A stretch of DNA of 64,000 nucleotides from a virus. Taxonomy: Duplodnaviria > Caudoviricetes. Position 1 is the first letter of the stretch. Each line of letters opens with the position of its first letter. Of the stretch, positions 16,393 through 53,365 are shown piece after piece. The notes beneath the pieces were generated by a model. That model worked only from the letters and a program-made list of their open reading frames with translations, did no database searches and was not told the DNA's origin. The stretch lies in the IMG/VR virus record IMGVR_UViG_3300028903_000001, positions 32,001 to 96,000 of that record; one strand, written 5' to 3'. The position numbers were made by a program, and so were the translations under genes.

Positions 16393-17169
16393 TCACACCG
16401 GGGTGTACTTTGCATTGTCAAGAACGTGGATTTCTGCCCGCATCCTCGCGTCGAGAATGCCTGCCATATGCTCGGTAAAGGCGAAGGGGTAGACGGCAAG
16501 CGTATGGATAATGCCGTCTTCGAAGTGGGGATCGACTGTCACCGGGTCGGGGGCGACAGTGAACCAAGACGCGCCAATGATTGCGTCGAGCCCGCTCACG
16601 ATCGTTCCGGCCACGCTTCCAGAAGCAGAGTCCCATGGCACCAGTTTGCCGTCGAGAAATAGTGTCAGACCAGAGGCGTTGCCAGAACCATCGCAGGCAA
16701 CGATGACGCTGCGCTGCTGCTTATCCTCCACGTCCGCAGATGGTAAGACATTGAAGATCGCACTGGCCACCGTTGTTCCATCTTCCAGGAACATCTCAAC
16801 CGTGCTCTGCGTCAGAATCATGTACACTCCTACCGCGTCGATGGGGTGGAGCGTAGAGAAGACGGGCGCAGCCGATGTGGGCAAGTTGCTCACCAGCGCC
16901 GCGATGGTGAAGGGCTGCGCATCAACGATGCAGTTGGCTGGGGCCGTGGCGTAGTCGGTGGAGCCGTTGCCGAAGCCGATACCCCTGCGGGTGTCGAGTT
17001 GGGCCGGGAACGTGGCGGGCGTGACCCCGTCGCCCATGGTGCAGTATTGGGGCCTGGGAGCCTTGCCGCCGCAGTTGCCCGTGACCTGGACACCACCGTC
17101 CACGAACTGCCGATCAAAGGGCAGGTAGATGTTGGCGTTGCGTGCCGAGACTCGTTGTGCGCTGTACAT
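16393..17169 (-). CDS. LamG/concanavalin A-like lectin domain protein
   Basis: GIGFGNGSTDY, PFTIAALV, LTLFLDGKL, AIIGA, FEDG.I..LAVY pattern typical of LamG-like domains. Confidence 0.65.
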   Translation of the reverse strand: MYSAQRVSARNANIYLPFDRQFVDGGVQVTGNCGGKAPRPQYCTMGDGVTPATFPAQLDTRRGIGFGNGSTDYATAPANCIVDAQPFTIAALVSNLPTSAAPVFSTLHPIDAVGVYMILTQSTVEMFLEDGTTVASAIFNVLPSADVEDKQQRSVIVACDGSGNASGLTLFLDGKLVPWDSASGSVAGTIVSGLDAIIGASWFTVAPDPVTVDPHFEDGIIHTLAVYPFAFTEHMAGILDARMRAEIHVLDNAKYTPV

Positions 17170-43955: not shown

Positions 43956-44613
43956 TTATACGAATTCATCCCCAGTGCTGCTCAGTACAATCGGACTCTG
44001 GCTCGCCTTTCGGATCTGAGAGATCAATCCTCGCAGTTCTGGTTCGCCTAGCTCTGCTTTTACCACATGCTGAGCCTCCCTGACCCAGCTAAAGGAGTAG
44101 ACCGGCCTTGCCACGACTCCCGAGCCTGTCGCCGTCCCATCGTATCGCTTGTCCACGCCTATCGGAGGCAAGCCGTCGTCGAGAATGCATGCTTTGGGGA
44201 ACATGCCCATGGGCATCTTGAGCAGATCCGAGAGTTGAGACTCGAGCCCCATGGCGACGCTGGGACGCATCGCCCAGACATAGGGAGTGTTGACCCAGGA
44301 TAGAAGCACCATTTGGCCGGAACGCTTCACGCTAATCATTCTGCCCGCCTTAGTTCGGTTTACTGCCAGGGTCTTCGTTGCGGTACGGTACACCGATTGC
44401 TGGCGTGGCCCGCATATACACAACGAATAGCTTGTTCAGCGAGTCAATCATCACGGCTCGCTGCGTCTCTGTCATGTATCCGACAATCACTCCTAGTGCT
44501 GCTAGGCCCGCCATGTCTATGACGGAACCACGCCTGTCTTCAAACCTCCGTTTCGTTCGCTTGACGCTATAGCCGTGTCTCTTTAGGTACGCGATGAGTA
44601 GCTTGTCTAACAT
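43956..44613 (-). other. Two small hypothetical CDSs (about 43956..44339 and 44350..44613)
   Basis: Co-directional ORFs; GGAGG RBS before MLDKLLIAY. Confidence 0.45.
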
Positions 44614-44662
44614 GAATCCTCCATGTCCGCAAGATTTGGTCGCGGGGGGTAGGGGTCCAGGG

Positions 44663-44974
44663 TCAAATCTCGCGATCCGGCTCGTCACTCTCCTCGACAG
44701 CCTTCTGTACACCATGTATCGCGTGGATGCTAAGGTCGATTGTGGCCTTTTTGTAGCCGATCCGCTGCATCTGGGCCCGAATCTCCTCTATCTGCGCTGG
44801 TCCCAGTCTATGCCAGGGGAAAGAGACGAGATCTTCCGGCGCGCGAAGCAGGCGCGTCACCCGCAGCAGCGCGCTGCGCATGCTCGCCGCTCCGTTGCGG
44901 CTCAGTTTCCCGAGGTAGATTTCGACCTGGGACCGCTGGAGAGGTGACTTGACTCTGCGTCGTTTATCGGACAC
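44663..44974 (-). CDS. Stand-alone core-binding (SAM-like) domain of a tyrosine recombinase
   Basis: YLGKLS...ASMRSALLRVTRLL...SFPWHRL......IRAQM...GYKKATIDLSIHAIHGV matches N-terminal integrase domains; stops before any catalytic domain; AGGAG RBS, GTG start. Confidence 0.65.
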   Translation of the reverse strand: MSDKRRRVKSPLQRSQVEIYLGKLSRNGAASMRSALLRVTRLLRAPEDLVSFPWHRLGPAQIEEIRAQMQRIGYKKATIDLSIHAIHGVQKAVEESDEPDREI

Positions 44975-45024
44975 AATAACGTCTCCTAGCTATCTGTCCG
45001 ATAAGGGAGCATTATCGGACACAA
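44964..45024. promoter_or_regulatory. lox/res-like recombination or operator site
   Basis: Perfect palindrome TGTCCGATAA-GGGAGCA-TTATCGGACA (44995..45021) plus an extra half-site TTATCGGACACAA at 44964. Confidence 0.75.
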
Positions 45025-45043
45025 CCTCGTTTTGGAGTCTAGT

Positions 45044-46012
45044 ATGTCTAACACCTACATCGTAAAGCCTGACTCGAGCGCCGCGCTCGCGACCGACCTC
45101 GAGGATCTTGCGGACCAGGCCAAGGACTTCATCAAAGCTTCGAAGTCGAAAGCGACGCGCACAGCTTACAGGTCGGACTTCGATGCCTTCACCTCGTGGT
45201 GCCGGGAACACGTTCTGGTGTCGATCCCGGCGAGACCCGAGACAGTGGCGATGTACGCCGCACACATGGCCCGCGAGGGGCTCGGCGTGTCGAGTGTCCA
45301 GCGAGCCATGGCGGCGATATCGCAGGCGCACAGAATGGCCGGAATCGAGTCGCCAACCCAGGCATCCGTGGTGAGGGAAACCGTCCGTGGCATCCGGCGC
45401 AGCCTCGGCGTGAAGCCGAACAAGAAGGCCCCCGTCACGATCGACGAGCTTCGAAAGATGGTCGCGACTCGCCCACAGACCCTGCTCGGCCTGCGAGACC
45501 GCGCGCTGCTTCTGCTCGGCTTCAGCGGCGCGTTTCGCCGCTCCGAGCTTGCCGCGCTCGACCATGCCGACCTGGATTTTGTCGCCGAGGGCGTCGTCGT
45601 CACGGTGCGTCGCAGCAAAACCGATCAGGAAGGCGAGGGGCTCGAGAAGGCGATTCCCTACGCCATGGACCAGACCATGTGCCCGGTCCTTACGCTTCAG
45701 TCCTGGCTCGACGCGGCTGGAACGAGTGATGGTCCCGTGTTTCCGAGCATCGATCGCGGCGACAACCTGTCTGGACGCATGAGCGACAGGGCCGTGGCAA
45801 GGACCGTGCAGAGAGCCGCGAGGCGCGTCGGTCTGGACCCGTCCAGATTCGCGGGGCACAGCCTCCGAGCCGGGTTTGCCACATCGGCCATTCTCGCCGG
45901 GAAATCGGAGGCAGATACGATGCGGCAGACCGGGCATAGGAGTATTGCCGTTTTCAGGGGTTATGTTCGAGTCGCTAATCTGTGGAAGAGTAATGCGTCT
46001 AAACTGCTTTGA
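45044..46012 (+). CDS. Tyrosine recombinase, Cre/TnpS-like
   Basis: Full catalytic set: RDRALLLLGFSGAFRRSEL, RSKTDQ, GHSLRAG, QTGHRS, GYVR; GGAG RBS before ATG 45044. Confidence 0.95.
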   Translation: MSNTYIVKPDSSAALATDLEDLADQAKDFIKASKSKATRTAYRSDFDAFTSWCREHVLVSIPARPETVAMYAAHMAREGLGVSSVQRAMAAISQAHRMAGIESPTQASVVRETVRGIRRSLGVKPNKKAPVTIDELRKMVATRPQTLLGLRDRALLLLGFSGAFRRSELAALDHADLDFVAEGVVVTVRRSKTDQEGEGLEKAIPYAMDQTMCPVLTLQSWLDAAGTSDGPVFPSIDRGDNLSGRMSDRAVARTVQRAARRVGLDPSRFAGHSLRAGFATSAILAGKSEADTMRQTGHRSIAVFRGYVRVANLWKSNASKLL

Positions 46013-46057
46013 TGGGGCGCAGCTACCATACCACTGCCGCCGCCTGGGGGCTGGCCG

Positions 46058-46989
46058 GTCTCGACAAGCAAGATGTCGAGCTACTACTGCCACACGGGAT
46101 CCGTGTTTCCTAGTTGATCTGTCACTCATGGGTCTCGACAAGCAAGATGTCGAGCTACTACCGCTACACTCGTCAAGCAGTTGGGACCTTGAGTTGGAGT
46201 GGGAGTCTCGACAAGCAAGATGTCGAGCTACTACTGCTACACGCCAGATAGGCCTCAGCGCGATCGTCAAGACCAAGGTCTCGACAAACAAGATGTCGAG
46301 CTACTACCGCTACCGCTGATGCAGACAAGCGTTTGACTGCGGCAAAGGAGTCTCGACAAGCAAGATGTCGAGCTACTACCGCTACCGGCTCGTCGCTCCC
46401 AGGGCGCGGCGCAACCAGGCTTGACAGGTCACGGCTCGACCCTGGTCTCGACAAGCAAGATGTCGAGCTACTACCGCTACCGCGCCTCGGTGAGGTATTT
46501 GCGGGAGACGACGCCGGGTCTCGACAAGCAAGATGTCGAGCTACTACCGCTACGATGACGATGGGGCGCGTCGCCATCCGAGATTGCCGCATGTCTCGAC
46601 AAGCAAGATGTCGAGCTACTACCGCTACTTAGAGACGTCTTCGCCTCGGGCGACCCGGAGAACGTCTCGACAAGCAAGATGTCGAGCTACTACCGCTACG
46701 ACCGGGTTCGAATTTCGCATCGAGGGCACCTCTCTTGTCTCGACAAGCAAGATGTCGAGCTACTACCGCTACAGGACAAAAAGGGGCAACCGAAGCCGGC
46801 ACACCCGCCGTCTCGACAAGCAAGATGTCGAGCTACTACCGCTACGTCGGGCAGGACGATCAAGATCCCATCGACGCGATTGTCTCGACAAGCAAGATGT
46901 CGAGCTACTACCGCTACCATCCCGCTACCCACCTGGAAGGCGCTCGGCGAAATGTCTCGACAAGCAAGATGTCGAGCTACTACCGCTAC
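46058..46989 (-). CRISPR. CRISPR array 2: 13 repeats, 12 spacers
   Basis: 36-bp repeat GTAGCGGTAGTAGCTCGACATCTTGCTTGTCGAGAC (minus strand; 7-bp stem CTCGACA/TGTCGAG near the 3' end); spacers 35-39 bp except one of 59 bp; variant repeats cluster at the leader-distal (left) end. Confidence 0.98.
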
Positions 46990-47168
46990 GAGTCTGGCAG
47001 GACGCTCGCAATTTCGACGGGTTACAGCACGACTTGCGAGCGGTCCTCCAAGCCTACTGTCTCGGATCAATTTTCAACGACCAGGATCGGCGTAGTGCCG
47101 CAGATTCTACCTCATCTCTGAGGCTTTCGAGCGGTCCCAGCGGTTTCGGGACCACCCAGGCGCTCGCG
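46990..47168 (-). promoter_or_regulatory. CRISPR leader, copy 2 (179 bp)
   Basis: Identical to 48422..48600 except at 4 positions; contains GCGAGCG/CGCTCG inverted and direct motifs and TTGAAAAT. Confidence 0.9.
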
Positions 47169-47738
47169 AAGCTTCTCGTTCTCCTTTTCCAAACTCCTGA
47201 CCCTTGCCTTCAGTGTCTTGTTCTCAGCCCTAAGCTCCCTATTCTCCCTGGACAGTTTATCGAACAGGTTCTCCTTCTGGGGCTTGACCCTAACCTCGGG
47301 GACGTAGTGCTTTCGGACTATCGACGCTGCGCTCCACGAACTCGGCTCTTTACCATTCCTGACTCGAAACTCAATGAGTTCTGCCATGGCAGATCTTGTT
47401 GCCAGACCGTGTACGGATCTTGACGGAGCATCGGGAGGAATGATGAGCAACTTCTCTGCCGCAGGGATACCTATCTTACGAATGTTGTCAATGCCGCCAC
47501 ACAACTCGACACAAAGTTTGAATCTCGCAAACCTTGTTGGCTGGGCAAGGTCACTCACATGGAGCACCTCCACAAATGTGGCCCACCCATACCTACCACC
47601 TACACCACTCTTCCATGCCGATTCGTTCTTTTCGAACCTGACGAGACCAGCCATGAAGTCAACCCCGGCCTCGGAGTATGCGGTCCTTAGCGCCTCGCAC
47701 TCCTTTACGAGCGCATCAAATCTCTTCTTGGTCGCCAT
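47112..47738 (-). CDS. Unknown protein embedded between the two CRISPR arrays, C-terminal coiled coil
   Basis: 208 aa, GAGGTG RBS; RYGWATFVEVL motif, leucine-zipper LSRENRELRAENKTLKARVRSLEKENEKL; last 18 codons are supplied by the leader copy. Confidence 0.8.
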   Translation of the reverse strand: MATKKRFDALVKECEALRTAYSEAGVDFMAGLVRFEKNESAWKSGVGGRYGWATFVEVLHVSDLAQPTRFARFKLCVELCGGIDNIRKIGIPAAEKLLIIPPDAPSRSVHGLATRSAMAELIEFRVRNGKEPSSWSAASIVRKHYVPEVRVKPQKENLFDKLSRENRELRAENKTLKARVRSLEKENEKLRERLGGPETAGTARKPQR

Positions 47739-47756
47739 GTCTCACCTCACTGTTAT

Positions 47757-48421
47757 CTATCGACTACCTAGTGTCGAGCTACTACCGCTACAAAGTCGAA
47801 TTGCGCGGAGATATCGTCCGTCGCGTGTCTCGACAAGCAAGATGTCGAGCTACTACCGCTACATCTCGCGTCATCGGCTTGCTGGCTCGGCAGTTCCACG
47901 CGGTGCTCCGTCTCGACAAGCAAGATGTCGAGCTACTACCGCTACGGTCTCCATATAGACCGGCACGAAATACGAATCGATGTCTCGACAAGCAAGATGT
48001 CGAGCTACTACCGCTACCGAATTCGGTCGATATCGGTGCGATTCTTGGCTGGCGTCTCGACAAGCAAGATGTCGAGCTACTACCGCTACCCCCAAGCTCA
48101 CACCTGTTGCACAGACCGTGATGTTCGTCTCGACAAGCAAGATGTCGAGCTACTACCGCTACCTGGCGTCTCGACAAGCAAGATGTCGAGCTACTACCGC
48201 TACAATGGGACAGACGAGGGCGGCAGGACGATGCAGCGGTCTCGACAAGCAAGATGTCGAGCTACTACCGCTACGATCGGATCGCGGAGGCCCGCGTCGC
48301 TGAGTGGTTGGCCGTCTCGACAAGCAAGATGTCGAGCTACTACCGCTACTGCGCTGGCCCGTGCCGTTGCGCAGTTTGACGCGCTGTCTCGACAAGCAAG
48401 ATGTCGAGCTACTACCGCTAC
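47757..48421 (-). CRISPR. CRISPR array 1: 9 full repeats plus a degenerate terminal repeat, 9 spacers
   Basis: Same 36-bp repeat at 47827, 47910, 47982, 48054, 48127, 48168, 48239, 48314 and 48386; degenerate copy at 47757..47791; spacers 35-39 bp except 47 bp and 5 bp. Confidence 0.98.
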
Positions 48422-48600
48422 GGGTCTGGCAGGACGCTCGCAATTTCGACGGGTTACAGCACGACTTGCGAGCGGTCCTCCAAGCCCACTGTCTCGGATC
48501 AATTTTCAACGACCAGGATCGGCGTAGTGCCGCAGATTCGACCTCATCTCTGAGGCTTTCGAGCGGTCCCAGCGGTTTCGGAACCACCCAGGCGCTCGCG
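48422..48600 (-). promoter_or_regulatory. CRISPR leader, copy 1 (179 bp)
   Basis: Fills the whole gap between the cas12m stop and the first repeat; duplicated at 46990..47168. Confidence 0.9.
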
Positions 48601-48601
48601 T

Positions 48602-50596
48602 TTACTCAGCCGCGACGGCGAGCATCTTCTCCTGTCTCCTGATGATTTCCAACACTTCGTTTTGCTTCCCGTCATCGTTGAGCATGTTCAACAATCTAAC
48701 GTGGAATGTATCACGAGTCAGTCCGCAATGCGAGCAGGAAAACATATGCGCCTTCACATCTTTATTTCCCTTCTCGAGTCTGCCGCACCTGGGGCATCTC
48801 ACTGAGCTATTCTCGACACTGACCTTCTCATAGAACACTCCCCTACCTCTGGCGGCATTCTTGATGCATTCGCGAAAGATGCCTGGGGCCACGATCTGGA
48901 GATTGGACCTCGACTTTTGTCTCTGCCTCTTACCAATCTCGCCCTCGCTCTTCTCTTCCTCTTTCTCCTTCTCCACTATCTGCTTGAAGTTGGTGCCGTC
49001 CACAAGTATTCGGGAGTACGTCCTCGCCAATCTGGCCGCGACGTTTCGATACGCATTGTTTCTTCTGCGTTTCGCCGTTTCATGCATACCCCCCTCAAAA
49101 CGGTACAGATGCAGGTTCTGCTTCCTCCATGCCATCATTCTCTCGTAAATCTCTGCGTCACCCTCGAATCGATTCTTCTCCCACGTCGTGACTAGATTGG
49201 CAAGCCGCCTTGGAGCCCTCCACTTTTGCATGCGAGCTATCGCCTGCTTTGATGTCGGTGTTCCATCGACACTCTTATCCTCCTCGTCATCGATGTCTCT
49301 TGCCGTAGCATTTCGCATCCACGCTGGCAGCTTATCGATCATGCTGAGCCAAGAGACTAGCTCCTTCATCGCCTTGTTGAAGTTGTCGTCCCTGGTGCGT
49401 GAGATCTCTTCCTTCCTTCTGAAGCTGGCGAAGATTCCGCTCCTGCCGCCGTCGCTCTCCACGTTGTATGGGCTCTGCACGCATCCCTTCCCACACTCGA
49501 TCTTTTCAACGATCTTGTCTCGAGACAGATCAAACACTCCGGTCTCCCCGTCCTCCGAGAGCCAATGCGCGACCCTGATCTTGTTGCCTTCCACTGCCCG
49601 CCATCCCAGCACTACGGCAACCGTGCCCCCTGCGGGCAGTGGCGGCTTCTCCGATTGCTTGTCAAGCTCTACCGTGATCTCACAGGACCAGCGCAGGTCT
49701 GGACCCCGCCTTCGCCTGGTAACGGTTACCCAGGTGATTCTCGAATTCGGTGGCAGCGGCCTATGAAGTATCATCGGCCACTTGGCTACGATGTATTCGC
49801 TCTTTCCCCTGGCGGTCCCGGCGACTGCCATGGTCAGAGTAGTCCTTGCCGCACGCCTCCTGTCGCACCGTCTTTCCGAGGTGAGCGCAACCGTGTCAAC
49901 CGGATCGATGATAGCTCTATGGTCGTTGCTAAAAATGTCAAGAGGGATTTTGCCCTTGCCGCCCTGTATCTGCACCGACAAAGACCCCTCACCTTTCCAC
50001 CGTTTGAATTCAGGGTTGTTGTCCTCCCTCCCTTCGTACATGGGGACCTTGGAACTCTCAAAGAATGCCTTGTCCACAAGTAACTTCGTGCCCCAGAAAG
50101 CCGGGGAGTCGTGACTGGCCTGTCTCCTCATCCTCGCCGCGATACCGTTGTTCGGTGTCTTGTCCGAAAAAGCTTCGGCTCTTGTCTTTTTCTTGCCAGT
50201 GCTTTCCTTGCCATTGATCTCGAGCATGCGGGCCTTTAGCGCTGGCGTGGCCCTCAACTCCTTGATCCTAGCAATGAGTTTGGCGATCTTTTCATCAATC
50301 GCCTCAACCTTTTCCGCGAACTCTTTGCTGGACCTGTCCTTGTCCGACTTGCCCTTGTAGAGCTTAGCCTTTTCCACGCCCAGGTCTTTGATTTGACCCA
50401 ATAGCTCTCGGATGCCGTACTCGTCTTCCGCTGCCCGCTTCAGATCCCTGACCTTGCACTCCACGCTCACTAGCTCATTTCTGTACCTATGCGCGTGCCA
50501 CAACTGCTCTTCCACCACATCCGCGTTAAAAACCGGAGGCAAGAGCCCATATTTCATCACCAATGGCATCGTGTTCCCCTTTCTTCTCTGCGTCAT
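48602..50596 (-). CDS. cas12m: Cas12m-like (type V-M / V-U1) effector with degenerate RuvC active site
   Basis: EQLWHAHRYRNELVSVE, FWGTKLLV, FKRWKGEGSLSVQIQGG, HRPLP, GTVAVVLGWR, WRAPRRLANL, RRNNAYR, ILVDG, APGIFR and CPRC...CSHC align by eye with Cas12m family motifs; directly upstream of leader and array. Likely start is ATG 50569 (AAGGGG RBS). Confidence 0.85.
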   Translation of the reverse strand: MTQRRKGNTMPLVMKYGLLPPVFNADVVEEQLWHAHRYRNELVSVECKVRDLKRAAEDEYGIRELLGQIKDLGVEKAKLYKGKSDKDRSSKEFAEKVEAIDEKIAKLIARIKELRATPALKARMLEINGKESTGKKKTRAEAFSDKTPNNGIAARMRRQASHDSPAFWGTKLLVDKAFFESSKVPMYEGREDNNPEFKRWKGEGSLSVQIQGGKGKIPLDIFSNDHRAIIDPVDTVALTSERRCDRRRAARTTLTMAVAGTARGKSEYIVAKWPMILHRPLPPNSRITWVTVTRRRRGPDLRWSCEITVELDKQSEKPPLPAGGTVAVVLGWRAVEGNKIRVAHWLSEDGETGVFDLSRDKIVEKIECGKGCVQSPYNVESDGGRSGIFASFRRKEEISRTRDDNFNKAMKELVSWLSMIDKLPAWMRNATARDIDDEEDKSVDGTPTSKQAIARMQKWRAPRRLANLVTTWEKNRFEGDAEIYERMMAWRKQNLHLYRFEGGMHETAKRRRNNAYRNVAARLARTYSRILVDGTNFKQIVEKEKEEEKSEGEIGKRQRQKSRSNLQIVAPGIFRECIKNAARGRGVFYEKVSVENSSVRCPRCGRLEKGNKDVKAHMFSCSHCGLTRDTFHVRLLNMLNDDGKQNEVLEIIRRQEKMLAVAAE

Positions 50597-50950
50597 CTAC
50601 TGTCGAGCTACTACTGCTACCTCGAACAACTCTCCGACCGTCACTCCGGTCGTATAGCTCTCATACCTCTCACCAACCTCTGTGAGACTAGCAAGTCTGA
50701 TTCCTTTTGGCCACTCAATTGTTTCGAGCCGAAACGATTTCTCTACCCTCGCCCACTTGTACAGCGAGCCGTCGGGCCAGCTATACTGATGCCTGTACTC
50801 GATACCGTTTTGCTCCAGAGTGGACTCGACGAGACGCTCGGCTAGTGACAAAACGAAGTCAGCCCTCGCCTCTCTGCCCATTTCTTCGCGCCCAGCTATG
50901 TTGAACAGGCCACTGTAGCTAAAGCTCATCGAGTAGTATCTGTAACTCAT
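50597..50950 (-). CDS. Hypothetical protein; C-terminus (VAVVARQ) encoded by the half repeat
   Basis: 117 aa, ATGA overlap with the exonuclease gene. Confidence 0.55.
   Translation of the reverse strand: MSYRYYSMSFSYSGLFNIAGREEMGREARADFVLSLAERLVESTLEQNGIEYRHQYSWPDGSLYKWARVEKSFRLETIEWPKGIRLASLTEVGERYESYTTGVTVGELFEVAVVARQ
50601..50620 (-). repeat. Orphan half CRISPR repeat upstream of cas12m
   Basis: GTAGCAGTAGTAGCTCGACA equals the first 20 nt of the repeat (same one-base variant as the repeat at 46205). Confidence 0.9.
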
Positions 50951-51630
50951 GCCAGCCTCACGACACGGAACGGCAGCTTCGCCGCATCGTCAATCGCCAT
51001 CTTCCTGACCCAGCGCTTCTTGTCTCTCTCCCACCGGAAGCCCGCGTCCTTGGCAATGTCTCTGTCCTCGTAGGGAATCTTCGCTTCGAAAACAGCCTTG
51101 GGACGAAGACCTCGAGCGAGCAGTTCCGAGACGTCGTGGCCGAGTTCCGCGACCCTGGTCATGAGTCGCGCCAGCATGAAGCAGTCGCCCAGCGCACGGT
51201 GCGGATCGACGACTCCGATCCCGTGGTCGAGACAGAGCGAGACGAGGCTCGAGCCGGGCCTTTGCTCGAGTGGCCACGTCACGTCGCCACACGTATCGAT
51301 CCACGGCACCTTCGCCGGAAACGTGTCGGGCACCCATTGCCGATCGAAGTCGGCGTTGTGGGCCAGCACGGCTTCACAGCCACCCGCTCTGACGCCGACC
51401 TCGCCCCAGACATACTCCGCGTCCATTCCACTGCTCTGCCTGAGCAGACCCACCGGAATATGGTTGACGCGCTCCGCGTCATTGCCGTCGCTGTGGATGA
51501 GGCTCGAGAAAGCCTCGACCATCGCGCGGTGCCTAATCGAGTAGACGATGCAGCCAACCTCGATGCATTTTGCGCCCTGCGCCGGATCGAGGCCCGTCGT
51601 CTCCGTGTCGAGTATGCATACTAGGTCCAT
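50947..51630 (-). CDS. DEDDh 3'-5' exonuclease (DnaQ/epsilon-like)
   Basis: LDTETTG, AHNADFD and HRALGDC motifs; C-terminal AKDAGFRWERDKKRW; start ATG 51630 with GGAG RBS. Confidence 0.92.
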   Translation of the reverse strand: MDLVCILDTETTGLDPAQGAKCIEVGCIVYSIRHRAMVEAFSSLIHSDGNDAERVNHIPVGLLRQSSGMDAEYVWGEVGVRAGGCEAVLAHNADFDRQWVPDTFPAKVPWIDTCGDVTWPLEQRPGSSLVSLCLDHGIGVVDPHRALGDCFMLARLMTRVAELGHDVSELLARGLRPKAVFEAKIPYEDRDIAKDAGFRWERDKKRWVRKMAIDDAAKLPFRVVRLA

Positions 51631-51640
51631 GTCACTCCGA

Positions 51641-53365
51641 TCACTTTTCGCTACCAGACGTTGCCAATGCAACGCCCAGTGCCGATGCATCCAACAGGTT
51701 TCCCCGAAGGATGGGTTGATCTCCCAAAGCTCGCAGGAATATCCCGCGAGCGCCGTTGTAATCTCGATCCATTGACACGCCGGTCGATGCCGATCGGACA
51801 GTCTTTGCGCCACCAAGCTTGGCGTTGATCTCGCCGGTCCACGACACGGTCTTGCTCGTCCAAGCCTCGTTCTGGTCGAGCACGAGCTTGCCGTACTCGA
51901 ACGCCTTGTGCTTCAGGAAAGTCTTGAACCGATAGTGCGAGAACGTCAGCATGGATCGCACCGACTTCGCGCGAAGCCTGCGCGCCCCGCGCCGAACCAT
52001 CTCCGAGGTCTCGAACGTCGGCAGCACGATCACGTCGAAGCTCTTGACCAGAAACGCTGCCACCTTGTGGTGCAGATCGTCTACAAGGTTTCGAATCCTG
52101 ACCTGCATGCTCACGATAGCACGCCGAAGATTTCGCTTCCGAAGACGATGCGTCTCCAACCTGCGCCTCGAAATGAGGTCATCCATGTGCGAGCACAACC
52201 GCTGAATCTTCCCGAAGTCGCCAGCACCAAGCTTGCCGCAACTGGACTCCGTGTAGAACGTTTGGAAGGATCGTATCCCTGGATCGAGAGCAACGACGCG
52301 CCCTTGGTTTTCGGCTACGCACCGCTTTTGCTGCACGGGAACGATCAGAAACCACCGCCCTCTTTCGCAGACTAGCCTAAGATCGCAATGTTCCTTTGGT
52401 ACCTCCTCGACCATTCGAAGCGCCCCTCGGGATAGAGTCGGGTAGACCCCACCGTTTCGAAGTGCGCTTTTGGGGATGTAGCAGGACTGCACCGGGTTCT
52501 TTCTCGACCTGAACCCGACGTCCTGAAAGCCTCCCCCCTCCTTGAATCTGCGCTTTGCCGCCGACACGGCTTTACAGGCATCGCGCACCGCCACTGACCT
52601 GATCTGGTAGGGCGTCTCCTCGGACCAAGCAGGGAGACCTCGCAGCAGCCCCGTCTTGATCGACTTCCAGTTCGCCTTCGTCCCCGGGGTCTTCAGAAAG
52701 CTCACGGCAGCGTTGAAGGCGACGCGCGCAGTCCCAAACCACTGTCTGAAGATGCTCTCCTGCTGCCTAGTGGGGTAGAGTCGGATCTTCTTTGATTTGA
52801 GAAGCGTATCGTCGCAGCCCGTGCATTCGGCAAGAGAAGACGTGAATGATGGCGAGAAGATCGTCGGATAGCTCTCGCTCGGGGCTGTGTTCAACTCGAT
52901 CGAGAACCAAGAGTTCGCCACCGTTTTGCTCGAGCATGTGGGCGATGAGTTCGACACCAAAGCGGGCAAGGCGGTCCTTGTGGGCAACCACAACCGTGAG
53001 CTTTGCTCCTCATGCCAATCGGTCCAGTAGGGAGAGCAGTCCTTTACGCTTGAAGTTGAGACCACTTCCGATGTCCTTGACGATTTCGGCATCAGGGAAG
53101 CGCTGTCGCATGTAGACAACCTGTCTTGCGAGGTCGTCCTTTTGCTTCGGGGAGGAGACCCTGAAGTAGCAGATGGTGGCGGGGGGCAAGGCGTCTTTGA
53201 CGAAGGACTCGACATCGAAGAGCCGCTGACCCGCAGGGTTTCTAACGTGTTTGATGAGTCCAGCATCAGCGTATTTCCGCACCGTATTGGGGGCACATGC
53301 CGAGCGACTGGCATGCCATCCGTAGAGGGACGAGCTTTATGTCGTATGGTAGAGGACGGTGGCAT
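51641..53365 (-). CDS. tnpB: IS607 TnpB RNA-guided nuclease (start uncertain; core domain about 51641..52806)
   Basis: KSKKIRLYP, VVALDPGIRSF (RuvC-I Asp), VIVLP then QNEAWTSKT (displaced Glu typical of IS607/Fanzor-like TnpB), DRDYNGARGIFLR (RuvC-III Asp); zinc-finger cysteines absent. Confidence 0.9.
   Translation of the reverse strand: MPPSSTIRHKARPSTDGMPVARHVPPIRCGNTLMLDSSNTLETLRVSGSSMSSPSSKTPCPPPPSATSGSPPRSKRTTSQDRLSTCDSASLMPKSSRTSEVVSTSSVKDCSPYWTDWHEEQSSRLWLPTRTALPALVSNSSPTCSSKTVANSWFSIELNTAPSESYPTIFSPSFTSSLAECTGCDDTLLKSKKIRLYPTRQQESIFRQWFGTARVAFNAAVSFLKTPGTKANWKSIKTGLLRGLPAWSEETPYQIRSVAVRDACKAVSAAKRRFKEGGGFQDVGFRSRKNPVQSCYIPKSALRNGGVYPTLSRGALRMVEEVPKEHCDLRLVCERGRWFLIVPVQQKRCVAENQGRVVALDPGIRSFQTFYTESSCGKLGAGDFGKIQRLCSHMDDLISRRRLETHRLRKRNLRRAIVSMQVRIRNLVDDLHHKVAAFLVKSFDVIVLPTFETSEMVRRGARRLRAKSVRSMLTFSHYRFKTFLKHKAFEYGKLVLDQNEAWTSKTVSWTGEINAKLGGAKTVRSASTGVSMDRDYNGARGIFLRALGDQPILRGNLLDASALGVALATSGSEK
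52767..53340 (-). pseudogene. tnpA: IS607 TnpA serine recombinase, inactivated
   Basis: RVSSPKQKDDLARQ, DIGSGLNFKRKGL, KDRLARFG and ELSDDLLAIIHVFSCR motifs; start mutated to ATA (53340), +1 frameshift in a C5 run (53289..53293), in-frame TGA at 53010..53012. Confidence 0.88.

What the first reader, a model, noticed from the sequence alone, without database searches (positions are those of the whole stretch)
46990..48600. Modular gene-leader-array architecture: a duplicated 179-bp leader drives two independently grown arrays
Seen: on the minus strand the order is cas12m, leader, array 1, 208-aa gene, leader, array 2. The leaders differ at only 4 of 179 positions, yet I see no shared spacer between the arrays, and repeat variants collect at the leader-distal ends. 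The leader carries GCGAGCG/CGCTCG motifs four times, in inverted and direct orientation. Inference: both arrays kept acquiring spacers after the duplication, borrowing host Cas1-Cas2 in trans. The leader motifs resemble the integrase-recruiting motifs of class 1 leaders and should identify the host system.
Basis: partly seen in the sequence, partly recalled or inferred. Interest (0 to 1): 0.72.

Follow-up and report, generated by a model that had tools for sequence, protein, structure and literature searches.

The report
Phage Cas12m locus with duplicated leader
A 120-kb sludge phage carries a non-cutting CRISPR system (Cas12m) whose leader plus first repeat was copied once, giving two arrays with different spacers. 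The more useful finding is that this phage group always places an unknown 208-residue gene and a fixed-position DNA motif between cas12m and the array.

Summary
On the minus strand the order is cas12m, a 179-nt unit, array 1, a 208-aa gene (g208), the same 179-nt unit (4 differences), then array 2. The arrays share no spacer, and worn repeats lie at the far ends. The window is part of a complete 119.9-kb phage genome that has no cas1 or cas2.

Three corrections apply.
- The first 57 nt of the "leader" are the 3' coding end of g208. The true non-coding leader is 122 nt.
- Four relatives (Cas12m 33-56% identical) all have cas12m, then g208, then leader, then one array. The copy behind cas12m is therefore secondary: an 862-nt block inserted between the cas12m stop and the g208 start.
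- The GCGAGCG/CGCTCG motifs reduce to two direct boxes, GGACCGCTCG. They lie 91-92 nt apart (103 in one locus), and box B sits at a fixed distance from the first repeat in all five loci. Two relatives without g208 lack them.

Borrowing of host Cas1-Cas2 remains untested. No matching host array was found, and this phage's arrays are identical in three assemblies. In the sister phage, two assemblies with identical flanks differ in the spacer next to the leader.

This is a new variant of a known kind and of moderate interest.

The parts
48602..50569 (-). cas12m, 655 aa from the ATG with a ribosome-binding site. The longest ORF starts at 50596 (664 aa).
   Evidence: PDB Cas12m chains 23vw, 8pm4, 8hhl and 8hio match at E 1.9e-37 to 4e-17. 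PADLOC Cas12u1 matches at 8e-70 over the full length. Pfam Cas12f1-like TNB domain is present. The gene call and the sister-phage start agree on 655 aa. RuvC motif I reads AVVLGWR, with Val where solved Cas12m have H or D. The motif II and III Asp residues are kept.
48544..48600 (-). Leader copy 1, first part: a displaced copy of the last 57 nt of g208 (18 codons plus TGA). It starts 1 nt after the cas12m stop and contains box A (GGACCGCTCG, 48560-48569).
   Evidence: It is collinear with 47112-47168, which is the g208 C-terminus. The C-terminus is homologous in relatives.
48422..48543 (-). Leader copy 1, non-coding 122 nt. It contains box B (48469-48478) and its inverted partner TTGCGAGCGTCC.
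47756..48421 (-). CRISPR array 1: 9 perfect 36-nt repeats and 9 spacers (35-39 nt, plus one of 47 nt and one of 5 nt). The worn terminal repeat (47791-47756) keeps a 5-bp hairpin.
47739..47755 (-). 17-nt linker with the ribosome-binding site GAGGTGA in front of g208. It is absent in relatives, where cas12m and g208 abut or overlap.
47112..47738 (-). g208: a 208-aa all-helical protein with a C-terminal leucine-zipper coiled coil and a basic tail. It is a conserved partner of cas12m in this clade.
   Evidence: The family has 87 clusters at 50% identity, all about 200 aa. A Cas12m-like gene lies immediately upstream in all 5 relatives' loci for which upstream DNA could be read. The AlphaFold2 model has pLDDT 93. 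No Pfam domain matches except coiled-coil families.
46990..47168 (-). Leader copy 2, in the ancestral position. 47168-47112 overlaps the g208 3' end (box A 47128-47137). 47111-46990 is non-coding (box B 47037-47046).
46058..46989 (-). CRISPR array 2: 13 repeats, with variants in repeats 10, 11 and 13, and 12 spacers (35-39 nt, plus one of 59 nt). A possible decayed 14th repeat lies at about 46000-46034.
50601..50620 (-). Isolated 5' half of the repeat (GTAGCAGTAGTAGCTCGACA), 32 nt upstream of the cas12m ATG at the end of the 117-aa ORF. It has no hairpin. It is probably a recombination scar.
   Evidence: It is absent at the homologous place in the sister phage.
45032..46012 (+). Tyrosine integrase gene, convergent with and abutting the trailer end of array 2. 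The same arrangement occurs in the sister phage.
   Evidence: Pfam Phage_integrase 3.7e-17..

Best explanation
This is a phage-borne type V-M (Cas12m) CRISPR locus.

Shown:
- It belongs to a subclade whose ancestral layout is cas12m, then an unknown 208-aa helical coiled-coil gene (g208) that abuts or overlaps cas12m, then a 122-nt leader, then one array.
- The leader region carries two direct GGACCGCTCG boxes. Box B has a fixed distance to the first repeat.
- In this phage an 862-nt block lies exactly between the cas12m stop and the g208 start. The block consists of the last 57 nt of g208, the leader, an array with 9 spacers, a worn terminal repeat and a 17-nt linker with a ribosome-binding site. 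'Leader 1' is therefore a secondary copy of the g208-end/leader/first-repeat junction.
- The two arrays are co-oriented with cas12m, and no predicted terminator lies between them.

Inferred:
- The whole stretch is transcribed as one unit or from weak leader promoters.
- Cas12m cuts its own crRNAs out at the 3' hairpin of each repeat.
- Having Val at RuvC motif I, Cas12m binds rather than cuts matching DNA of rival mobile elements, and so blocks their transcription or replication.
- Because the near-identical leaders front wholly different spacers, spacer turnover has been faster than 2% sequence drift. The integrase is not encoded by the phage and is presumed to come from the host.
- The boxes, which occur only where g208 occurs, are most likely the binding site of g208, acting on array expression or on spacer integration.

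The confidence given applies to the structural and evolutionary reading. The functional steps marked as inferred are less certain (g208 binding the boxes about 0.4; spacer gain in trans from a host integrase about 0.35).
For: - Cas12m identity.
- Complete phage genome with direct terminal repeats, and no Cas1 or Cas2.
- Single-array layout with g208 directly behind cas12m in L012 (Cas12m 56% identical), L015/L016 (50%), L017 (47%) and L022 (33%). L023 shows a Cas12m C-terminus directly upstream of its g208 homologue..
- The g208 C-terminus encoded inside the duplicated unit is homologous across the family.
- Duplication boundaries and the 4 differences.
- Disjoint spacers.
- Independent contigs and about 2x depth of the leader.
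- Box geometry: the box B core lies 66-67 nt from the repeat hairpin arm in all five independent loci. Box A to box B is 91-92 nt in four of them and 103 nt in L022.
- The box is not enriched elsewhere in the genome.
- Two relatives without g208 (L040, L018) have the array 20-25 nt behind the cas12 gene, with no leader and no box.
- The repeat has a 7-bp hairpin at its 3' end.
- No terminator is predicted between cas12m and the end of array 2.
- Sister phage: 1524 nt of cas12m-g208-leader are 100% identical between two assemblies, and the last three spacers are shared. The spacer after the first repeat differs and is absent from the other assembly's whole array.
Against: - No protospacer was found for any spacer in the phage genome itself, in relatives' loci, in 50,697 phage records or in 72,556 plasmids. 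The two newest spacers were also absent from IMG/VR. Function against rivals is therefore assumed from the family.
- This phage's arrays are identical in all assemblies, so there is no sign of current acquisition.
- No promoter was found in the leader.
- The fold of g208 gives only weak, sub-threshold likenesses: ParB/Spo0J helix-turn-helix at Z 5.0-5.7, and DUF3102 in BFVD at E 0.017. Its DNA binding is a guess.
- The inverted partners of the boxes keep pairing in 76-96% of cells, with two compensatory pairs. An RNA hairpin could therefore explain part of the conservation without any protein.
- Irregular spacers (5, 23, 47 and 59 nt, and a duplicated spacer in L012) show that recombination as well as integration shapes these arrays.
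Confidence: 0.8

Rival explanations
1. Array 1 with its leader was not grown in place after an internal duplication. It was imported whole by unequal or illegitimate recombination with a co-infecting close relative that had the same repeat and leader but its own spacers.
For: The leaders differ by 2.2% while 19 of 22 repeats are identical. A same-genome unequal crossover would first give arrays that share spacers, and none is shared. Scars of recombination are present in the locus: a half repeat upstream of cas12m, a 5-nt spacer, and a duplicated spacer in the sister phage.
Against: No donor is known. If only the leader plus one repeat was copied, de novo growth explains the disjoint sets equally well. 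Either route still needs active spacer turnover in the lineage.
Confidence: 0.3
2. The leader boxes are integrase-anchoring motifs like those of class 1 leaders. Through them a host Cas1-Cas2 loads both arrays, so the motifs should point to the host system.
For: Box B has a fixed distance to the leader-repeat junction in five loci. The phage lacks Cas1 and Cas2. The sister phage shows a leader-end spacer difference. An earlier scan note on another phage proposes host type I-G loading of Cas12m arrays (this is a lead only).
Against: No host array of this repeat family lies next to cas1 in one genome per 185,579 species. The metagenome bin that holds the sister phage has no Cas1. The leader has no IHF consensus. 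The boxes co-occur with g208, a phage gene, rather than with any host system.
Confidence: 0.2
3. The conserved inverted GCGAGCG/CGCTCG pairs act as RNA hairpins in the pre-crRNA or mRNA, for processing, stability or attenuation, and not as protein-binding DNA sites.
For: The leader RNA folds better than shuffled versions (z -3.06). Helix 1 pairs in 96% of cells and helix 2 in 76%, against 30-45% when partners are slid. Two pairs show changes on both sides.
Against: There are only six sequences, two of them nearly identical, and the structure was derived from one of them. Box A and box B are direct repeats of one another and are conserved more strongly than their partners. Box A keeps identical third-codon positions inside g208 in three loci and lies outside the ORF in L022. 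No Rfam family matches.
Confidence: 0.25
4. The double array is an assembly artefact that merges two strains.
For: Repeats and a 216-nt duplication are classic causes of misjoins. All available data are short-read assemblies from what may be one sampling campaign.
Against: Three assemblies agree base for base. Logan contigs show no branch at the cas12m stop or upstream of g208, and the leader is at about 2x depth while cas12m, g208 and the integrase flank have equal depth.
Confidence: 0.04

Closest known systems
Type V-M CRISPR-Cas12m (MmCas12m2, GoCas12m; PMC10442227, PMC11013384)
   Same: The effector is homologous over its whole length. It has 36-nt repeats with a 3' hairpin, no tracrRNA-like anti-repeat, no adaptation genes and a degenerate RuvC site. 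The published mode of action is DNA binding that blocks transcription or replication.
   Different: - It is phage-borne.
- RuvC motif I is Val, where described variants are D-E-D, H-D-D or N-D-D.
- A conserved extra gene (g208) and a box-bearing leader lie between the effector and the array.
- There are two arrays.
Myxophage MV-1 Cas12m locus (bioRxiv 10.64898/2026.09.14.751636)
   Same: A Cas12m with an adjacent array in a complete phage genome, without cas1, cas2 or cas4. No protospacers were found. The host repeat is dissimilar.
   Different: MV-1 has one array of eight spacers, a canonical D-E-D RuvC triad and no reported partner gene.
CRISPR loci with two arrays and homologous leaders (for example the type I-F CRISPR1/CRISPR2 arrangement; from general knowledge)
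   Same: Two co-oriented arrays with near-identical leader and repeat and different spacers, served by one set of cas genes.
   Different: Here the second leader copy drags a gene fragment with it, which dates it as a recent local rearrangement. No adaptation module is present.
Leader elements that position spacer integration (IHF site and upstream anchoring site of type I-E, leader-anchoring sequence of type II-A; from general knowledge)
   Same: A conserved motif lies at a fixed distance upstream of the first repeat.
   Different: There is no IHF consensus. The motif is GC-rich and is repeated 91-92 nt upstream inside a coding region. It is tied to a phage gene, not to a known integrase. This is a likeness in geometry only.

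Membership tests
Type V-M CRISPR-Cas12m | Effector homologous to Cas12m (V-U1) over its full length, with a TnpB-type RuvC and a zinc-ribbon C-terminus | tested here: met
   PDB 23vw 1.9e-37, 8pm4 4.9e-29 (residues 17-623) and 8hhl/8hio 4.4e-17. PADLOC Cas12u1 8e-70 over residues 10-641. Pfam PF07282.
Type V-M CRISPR-Cas12m | RuvC site unable to cut double-stranded DNA; the target is bound instead | not testable with these tools
   Sequence evidence only. Val stands at the motif I position in AVVLGWR, against H in 8pm4/8hio and D in 23vw. The motif II and III Asp residues are present.
Type V-M CRISPR-Cas12m | Adjacent array of about 36-nt repeats with a 3' stem-loop, crRNA only (no tracrRNA) | tested here: met
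   There are 22 repeats of 36 nt, plus one worn terminal repeat, in two arrays. The 3' hairpin has 7 bp. No anti-repeat or further repeat copy occurs on either strand of the 120-kb genome apart from one 20-nt half repeat.
Type V-M CRISPR-Cas12m | No cas1 or cas2 in the locus | tested here: met
   PF01867 and PF09827 gave no match at E <= 1 in the whole phage genome, and the control genomes scored as expected. Cas4 was not searched.
CRISPR leader (functional sense) | Lies directly upstream of the first repeat, on the side away from the degenerate repeats | tested here: met
   Variant and worn repeats lie at the far ends of both arrays.
CRISPR leader (functional sense) | AT-rich and carries the array promoter | tested here: not met
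   The GC content of the 122-nt part is 57-59%, against 57.7% for the genome. The scan of 45900-50800 found no sigma-70-like site in the leaders. Other promoter types are not covered.
CRISPR leader (functional sense) | New spacers enter at the leader end | tested here: inconclusive
   This phage is identical in all assemblies. In the sister phage, the spacer after the first repeat differs between two assemblies while the trailer spacers are shared. One of those contigs ends 16 nt into the spacer.
Class 1 type leader with IHF site and integrase-anchoring motif | IHF consensus WATCARNNNNTTR between the motif and the repeat | tested here: not met
   No match with up to 1 mismatch on either strand of the leader.
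Class 1 type leader with IHF site and integrase-anchoring motif | A cognate Cas1-Cas2 and a host array with matching repeat ends | tested here: inconclusive
   The family-level repeat pattern hit only the sister-phage contig and a decayed cas12 array among one genome per 185,579 species. The host is unknown.
ParB/Spo0J-like or DUF3102-like DNA-binding proteins (for g208) | Recognisable fold or sequence match | tested here: inconclusive
   VIA-align gave Z 5.7 (6s6h_B) and Z 5.0 (1vz0_A), below the noise level for helical models. The best BFVD Foldseek hit was DUF3102 at E 0.017. The ESM Atlas feature neighbours include DUF3102 clusters at 0.89-0.90. Pfam scans of 54 members gave coiled-coil families only.

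The most novel reading that the evidence does not exclude
g208 is an undescribed Cas12m-associated protein that binds the GGACCGCTCG boxes of the leader. By doing so it marks the phage's own arrays for spacer integration by a borrowed integrase, or it controls their expression. That would make this subclade a self-contained 'effector + leader factor + array' module. It could explain how Cas1-less type V-M arrays keep growing, and why copying the g208-end/leader/repeat junction was enough to found a second working array.
Probability: 0.2. Interest if true: 0.8.

Novelty: new variant of a known kind. Interest (0 to 1): 0.55.

Why it matters
How type V-M arrays, and phage-borne arrays in general, gain spacers without their own Cas1-Cas2 is an open question. 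This locus offers a concrete handle on it. It has a conserved partner gene, a conserved leader box at fixed distance from the first repeat, and a natural experiment in which copying just that junction produced a second array with nine different spacers. A sister phage also shows a spacer difference at the leader end. The double array by itself is an ordinary rearrangement.

Tried and rejected
- Close relatives in IMG/VR. A Cas12m search, the exact repeat and a box-plus-repeat pattern found only the sister-phage contig.
- g208 alignments. A2 and A3 were too diverse for the search for related loci. The 4-sequence alignment found only the sister phage in JGI metagenomes.
- Protospacers. None was found in phage records, plasmids, the phage's own genome or relatives' loci. 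The first 24 nt of the two newest spacers were absent from IMG/VR.
- Host arrays. The Deltaproteobacteria bin with a related decayed array has Cas1 genes, but only on short contigs without arrays. This was a dead end.
- RNA evidence. No RNA holder was listed for this stretch. Logan contigs do not cover the array interiors, so spacer polymorphism in this phage could not be read.
- Cas12m-g208 complex prediction gave no verdict.
- Foldseek against the PDB found no match for g208.
- Rfam found no family in 45900-50800.
- Idea dropped: that two of the four leader differences create in-frame stop codons for g208. The real stop is TGA at 47112-47114 and is present in both copies.
- Idea dropped: that the 17-nt linker before g208 is targeted by spacer 6 of the sister phage. 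The shared word is only 9 nt.
- Earlier scan notes returned nothing for this genome or for the g208 sequence.
Full report
**What the window is.**
The window is bases 32001-96000 of a 119,895-bp virus record with direct terminal repeats, rated complete. Its GC content is 57.7%. Logan contigs place the phage in two activated-sludge metagenome runs of 2019.

**Check of the observation.**
Reading the minus strand of 44000-51000, with repeat finding and a scripted repeat/spacer parse, gives this order:
- a 117-aa ORF (50950-50597);
- cas12m (ATG at 50569, stop at 48602);
- a 179-nt unit (48600-48422);
- array 1, with nine perfect 36-nt repeats (48421-47827), a last spacer, and a worn terminal repeat (47791-47756);
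- a 17-nt linker with a ribosome-binding site;
- a 208-aa gene, here called g208 (47738-47112);
- the same 179-nt unit (47168-46990);
- array 2, with 13 repeats (46989-46058);
- the end of a convergent tyrosine-integrase gene (45032-46012, plus strand).

The two units plus the first repeat align without gaps over 216 nt. They differ at four positions: 48582/47150, 48540/47108, 48487/47055 and 48423/46991. An all-against-all spacer comparison found no shared spacer; the best match was an 11-nt word. Repeat variants are repeats 10, 11 and 13 of array 2 and the terminal repeat of array 1. The repeat occurs nowhere else in the genome, apart from one 20-nt half copy.

**Is the duplication an artefact?**
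Two ENA assemblies of the same phage (L009, L010) are 100% identical to the window over 6 kb, including every spacer. Logan contigs come from a different assembler and were laid from two runs:
- The cas12m contig runs 48 nt into leader copy 1. It stops exactly where the two copies become indistinguishable for a 31-mer.
- A 737-nt contig joins g208 to the last spacer of array 1.
- A 196-nt contig for the shared leader sits at 53 and 87 depth, against 28-33 and 35-42 for the flanks.
- That shared-leader contig carries a copy-1 allele at one site in each run.

There is no branch that would join cas12m directly to g208. A two-strain chimera is therefore unlikely, although all the data are short reads.

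**The effector.**
- The 655-aa protein matches solved Cas12m chains: 23vw at 1.9e-37, GoCas12m 8pm4 at 4.9e-29 over residues 17-623, and MmCas12m2 8hhl/8hio at 4.4e-17.
- It matches the PADLOC Cas12u1 model at 8e-70 over its full length.
- In the alignments, RuvC motif I reads AVVLGWR. Val stands where GoCas12m and MmCas12m2 have His and 23vw has Asp. The motif II and III aspartates are kept.
- Published Cas12m proteins bind but do not cut DNA, whatever their triad (PMC11013384).
- The repeat folds into a 7-bp hairpin at its 3' end followed by AC, as expected for a 5'-handle crRNA. The worn terminal repeat keeps 5 bp.
- The phage has no Cas1 or Cas2.

**Relatives fix the polarity of the duplication.**
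The nearest Cas12m homologues were traced to their contigs:
- The sister phage has a Cas12m 56% identical to this one. It is represented by L012 (a 69-kb contig), by a JGI/IMG-VR contig, and by contigs binned into a 'Parcubacteria' MAG. It is syntenic with this phage from the DnaB helicase to the integrase.
- In the sister phage, cas12m is followed after 1 nt by a 208-aa homologue of g208, then by 122 nt, then by a single array of 16 repeats.
- L015/L016 (50% identical), L017 (47%) and L022 (33%) have the same order: cas12m, an abutting or overlapping g208 homologue, then about 100-200 nt. Each contig ends in a repeat of the same family. L023 shows a Cas12m C-terminus directly upstream of its g208 homologue.
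- The last 18 codons and the TGA stop of g208 lie inside the duplicated unit (47168-47112). They are homologous to the C-termini of the family, for example ...LRERLG..GTARK....

The copy behind cas12m therefore carries a displaced g208 fragment and is the derived copy. An 862-nt block (48600-47739) has been inserted between the TAA-A of cas12m and the ATG of g208, and g208 has gained its own ribosome-binding site. The true non-coding leader is 122 nt.

**The motifs.**
- Box B lies 66-67 nt from the hairpin arm of the first repeat in all five independent loci, which places it about 54-57 nt upstream of the repeat.
- Box A lies 91-92 nt further upstream in four loci and 103 nt in L022.
- Box A falls inside the g208 codons for G-T-A-R in this phage, L015 and L017, with identical third positions. 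In L022 it lies after the stop. This argues for a constraint at the nucleic-acid level.
- Each box has an inverted partner of varying quality.
- Counting pairs on the alignment gives 96% (helix 1) and 76% (helix 2) of cells paired, against 30-45% for slid partners. Two pairs show changes on both sides. With six sequences, and a structure derived from one of them, this is only weak support for a hairpin or palindrome.
- The leader RNA folds somewhat better than shuffles (z -3.06).
- The box is not enriched elsewhere in the phage.
- There is no sigma-70-like promoter, no terminator, no IHF consensus and no AT-richness in the leader.
- Two related loci without g208 have the array 20-25 nt behind the cas12 gene, with no leader and no box. 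They are L040 (Cas12m 27% identical, with an array of about 18 repeats of the same family) and L018 (a decayed cas12 fragment in a Deltaproteobacteria MAG).

The boxes and g208 thus travel together.

**What g208 is.**
- The family has 87 clusters at 50% identity, all about 200 aa.
- The AlphaFold2 model built on 54 sequences is confident (pLDDT 93). It is all-helical, with a globular part (residues 1-147), a long C-terminal helix (158-193) that scores as a leucine zipper, and a basic tail.
- Foldseek found nothing in the PDB.
- VIA-align gave sub-threshold likenesses to the DnaA domain III lid (Z 6.8) and to the DNA-binding domains of ParB/Spo0J (Z 5.7 and 5.0).
- BFVD and the ESM Atlas both pointed weakly to DUF3102 phage and plasmid proteins. 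Pfam scans did not confirm this.

I read g208 as a dimeric nucleic-acid-binding protein and propose the boxes as its site. This is an inference.

**Do the arrays grow?**
Near-identical leaders and repeats in front of wholly different spacers mean that spacer content has turned over faster than 2% sequence drift. This holds whether array 1 grew in place from a copied leader plus repeat or was imported from a co-infecting relative. A same-genome unequal crossover would at first give shared spacers, and there are none.

Direct evidence in this phage is lacking, because all assemblies are identical. In the sister phage, 1524 nt of cas12m-g208-leader are 100% identical between L012 and the JGI/MAG contig, and the three trailer spacers are shared. 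The spacer after the first repeat is CGTCGAGTG... in one assembly and GGAAGGATT... in the other, and the latter is absent from the whole L012 array. One contig ends 16 nt into that spacer. The difference in content is therefore certain, and its position is only probable.

Recombination also shapes these arrays. This phage has a 5-nt spacer and spacers of 47 and 59 nt. L012 has a 23-nt spacer and a duplicated spacer.

**Source of the integrase.**
This is unknown. A pattern for two consecutive repeats of this family was scanned over one genome for each of 185,579 species. It hit only the sister-phage contig and the decayed Deltaproteobacteria array. The MAG that holds the sister phage has no Cas1. 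No protospacer was found anywhere searched.

**Comparison with what is known.**
- Cas12m biology is established (PMC10442227, PMC11013384).
- A phage-borne Cas12m with one array was reported in a 2026 preprint, which called it the first (10.64898/2026.09.14.751636).
- Earlier notes of this scan list many phage Cas12m loci. One has a duplicated leader that was read as a host type I-G-like leader. These are leads only and were not tested here.
- Two arrays with homologous leaders are common in CRISPR loci generally.
- I found no description of a conserved partner gene or leader box for type V-M in the papers searched.

**Verdict.**
This is a new variant of a known kind. The double array is an ordinary local rearrangement. 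The g208-plus-box module and the leader-end spacer difference in a Cas1-less phage are the parts worth bench work.

Noticed in passing
window 50601-50620 (-): An isolated 20-nt 5' half of the CRISPR repeat (the A-variant also seen in repeats 11 and 13 of array 2). It lies at the 3' end of the 117-aa ORF, 32 nt before the cas12m ATG. It replaces 15 nt of the sister phage's sequence and cannot form the repeat hairpin. It is probably a recombination scar rather than a Cas12m handle.
   Followed up: partly
L035 1490-1527 (G001:C10, about 16650-16684), sister phage: One solitary, near-full-length repeat in inverted orientation. It lies in an intergenic gap about 13 kb upstream of cas12m. No such solitary repeat exists in this phage.
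   Followed up: partly
window 51641-53365 (-): An IS607-like unit: a 90-aa serine-recombinase fragment plus a TnpB (NCBIfam guided_TnpB 9.8e-39). It lies between the DUF5131 gene region and the exonuclease gene. It is absent at the same place in the sister phage, so it is a recent insertion about 1 kb upstream of cas12m.
   Followed up: partly
window 50947-51816 (-): A DEDDh 3'-5' exonuclease two genes upstream of cas12m in both phages. It matches PADLOC's 'CAS-associated DEDDh' model (2.5e-20) and also PHROG 192, a DNA polymerase exonuclease subunit. Whether it belongs to replication or to the CRISPR module is open.
   Followed up: no
window 46850, 46996, 48222, 48428 (-): The 9-mer CGTCCTGCC occurs 5 times in the 120-kb genome, and 4 of these are in the CRISPR locus. 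They are the end of both leaders, spacer 3 of array 1 and spacer 2 of array 2; the two spacers share 11 nt. This is unexplained. It could be chance, leader-derived fragments, or spacers taken from rival leaders.
   Followed up: partly
window 48163-48167, 47863-47909 and 46386-46444; L012 13498-13520: Irregular spacers of 5, 47 and 59 nt in this phage. In the sister phage there is a 23-nt spacer directly before a duplicated spacer (7 = 12). These are signs of deletion and recombination inside the arrays.
   Followed up: partly
L040 5984-8130; L039: More distant phage-like contigs (Cas12m 27-29% identical) lack g208. L040 has about 18 repeats of the same repeat family starting 25 nt after the cas12m stop, plus a lone repeat about 770 nt beyond the array.
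   Followed up: partly
L012 / G001: The sister phage's contigs are binned in a 1.5-Mb 'Parcubacteria group' MAG that serves as a GTDB species representative. This is either a host hint or a binning error.
   Followed up: no
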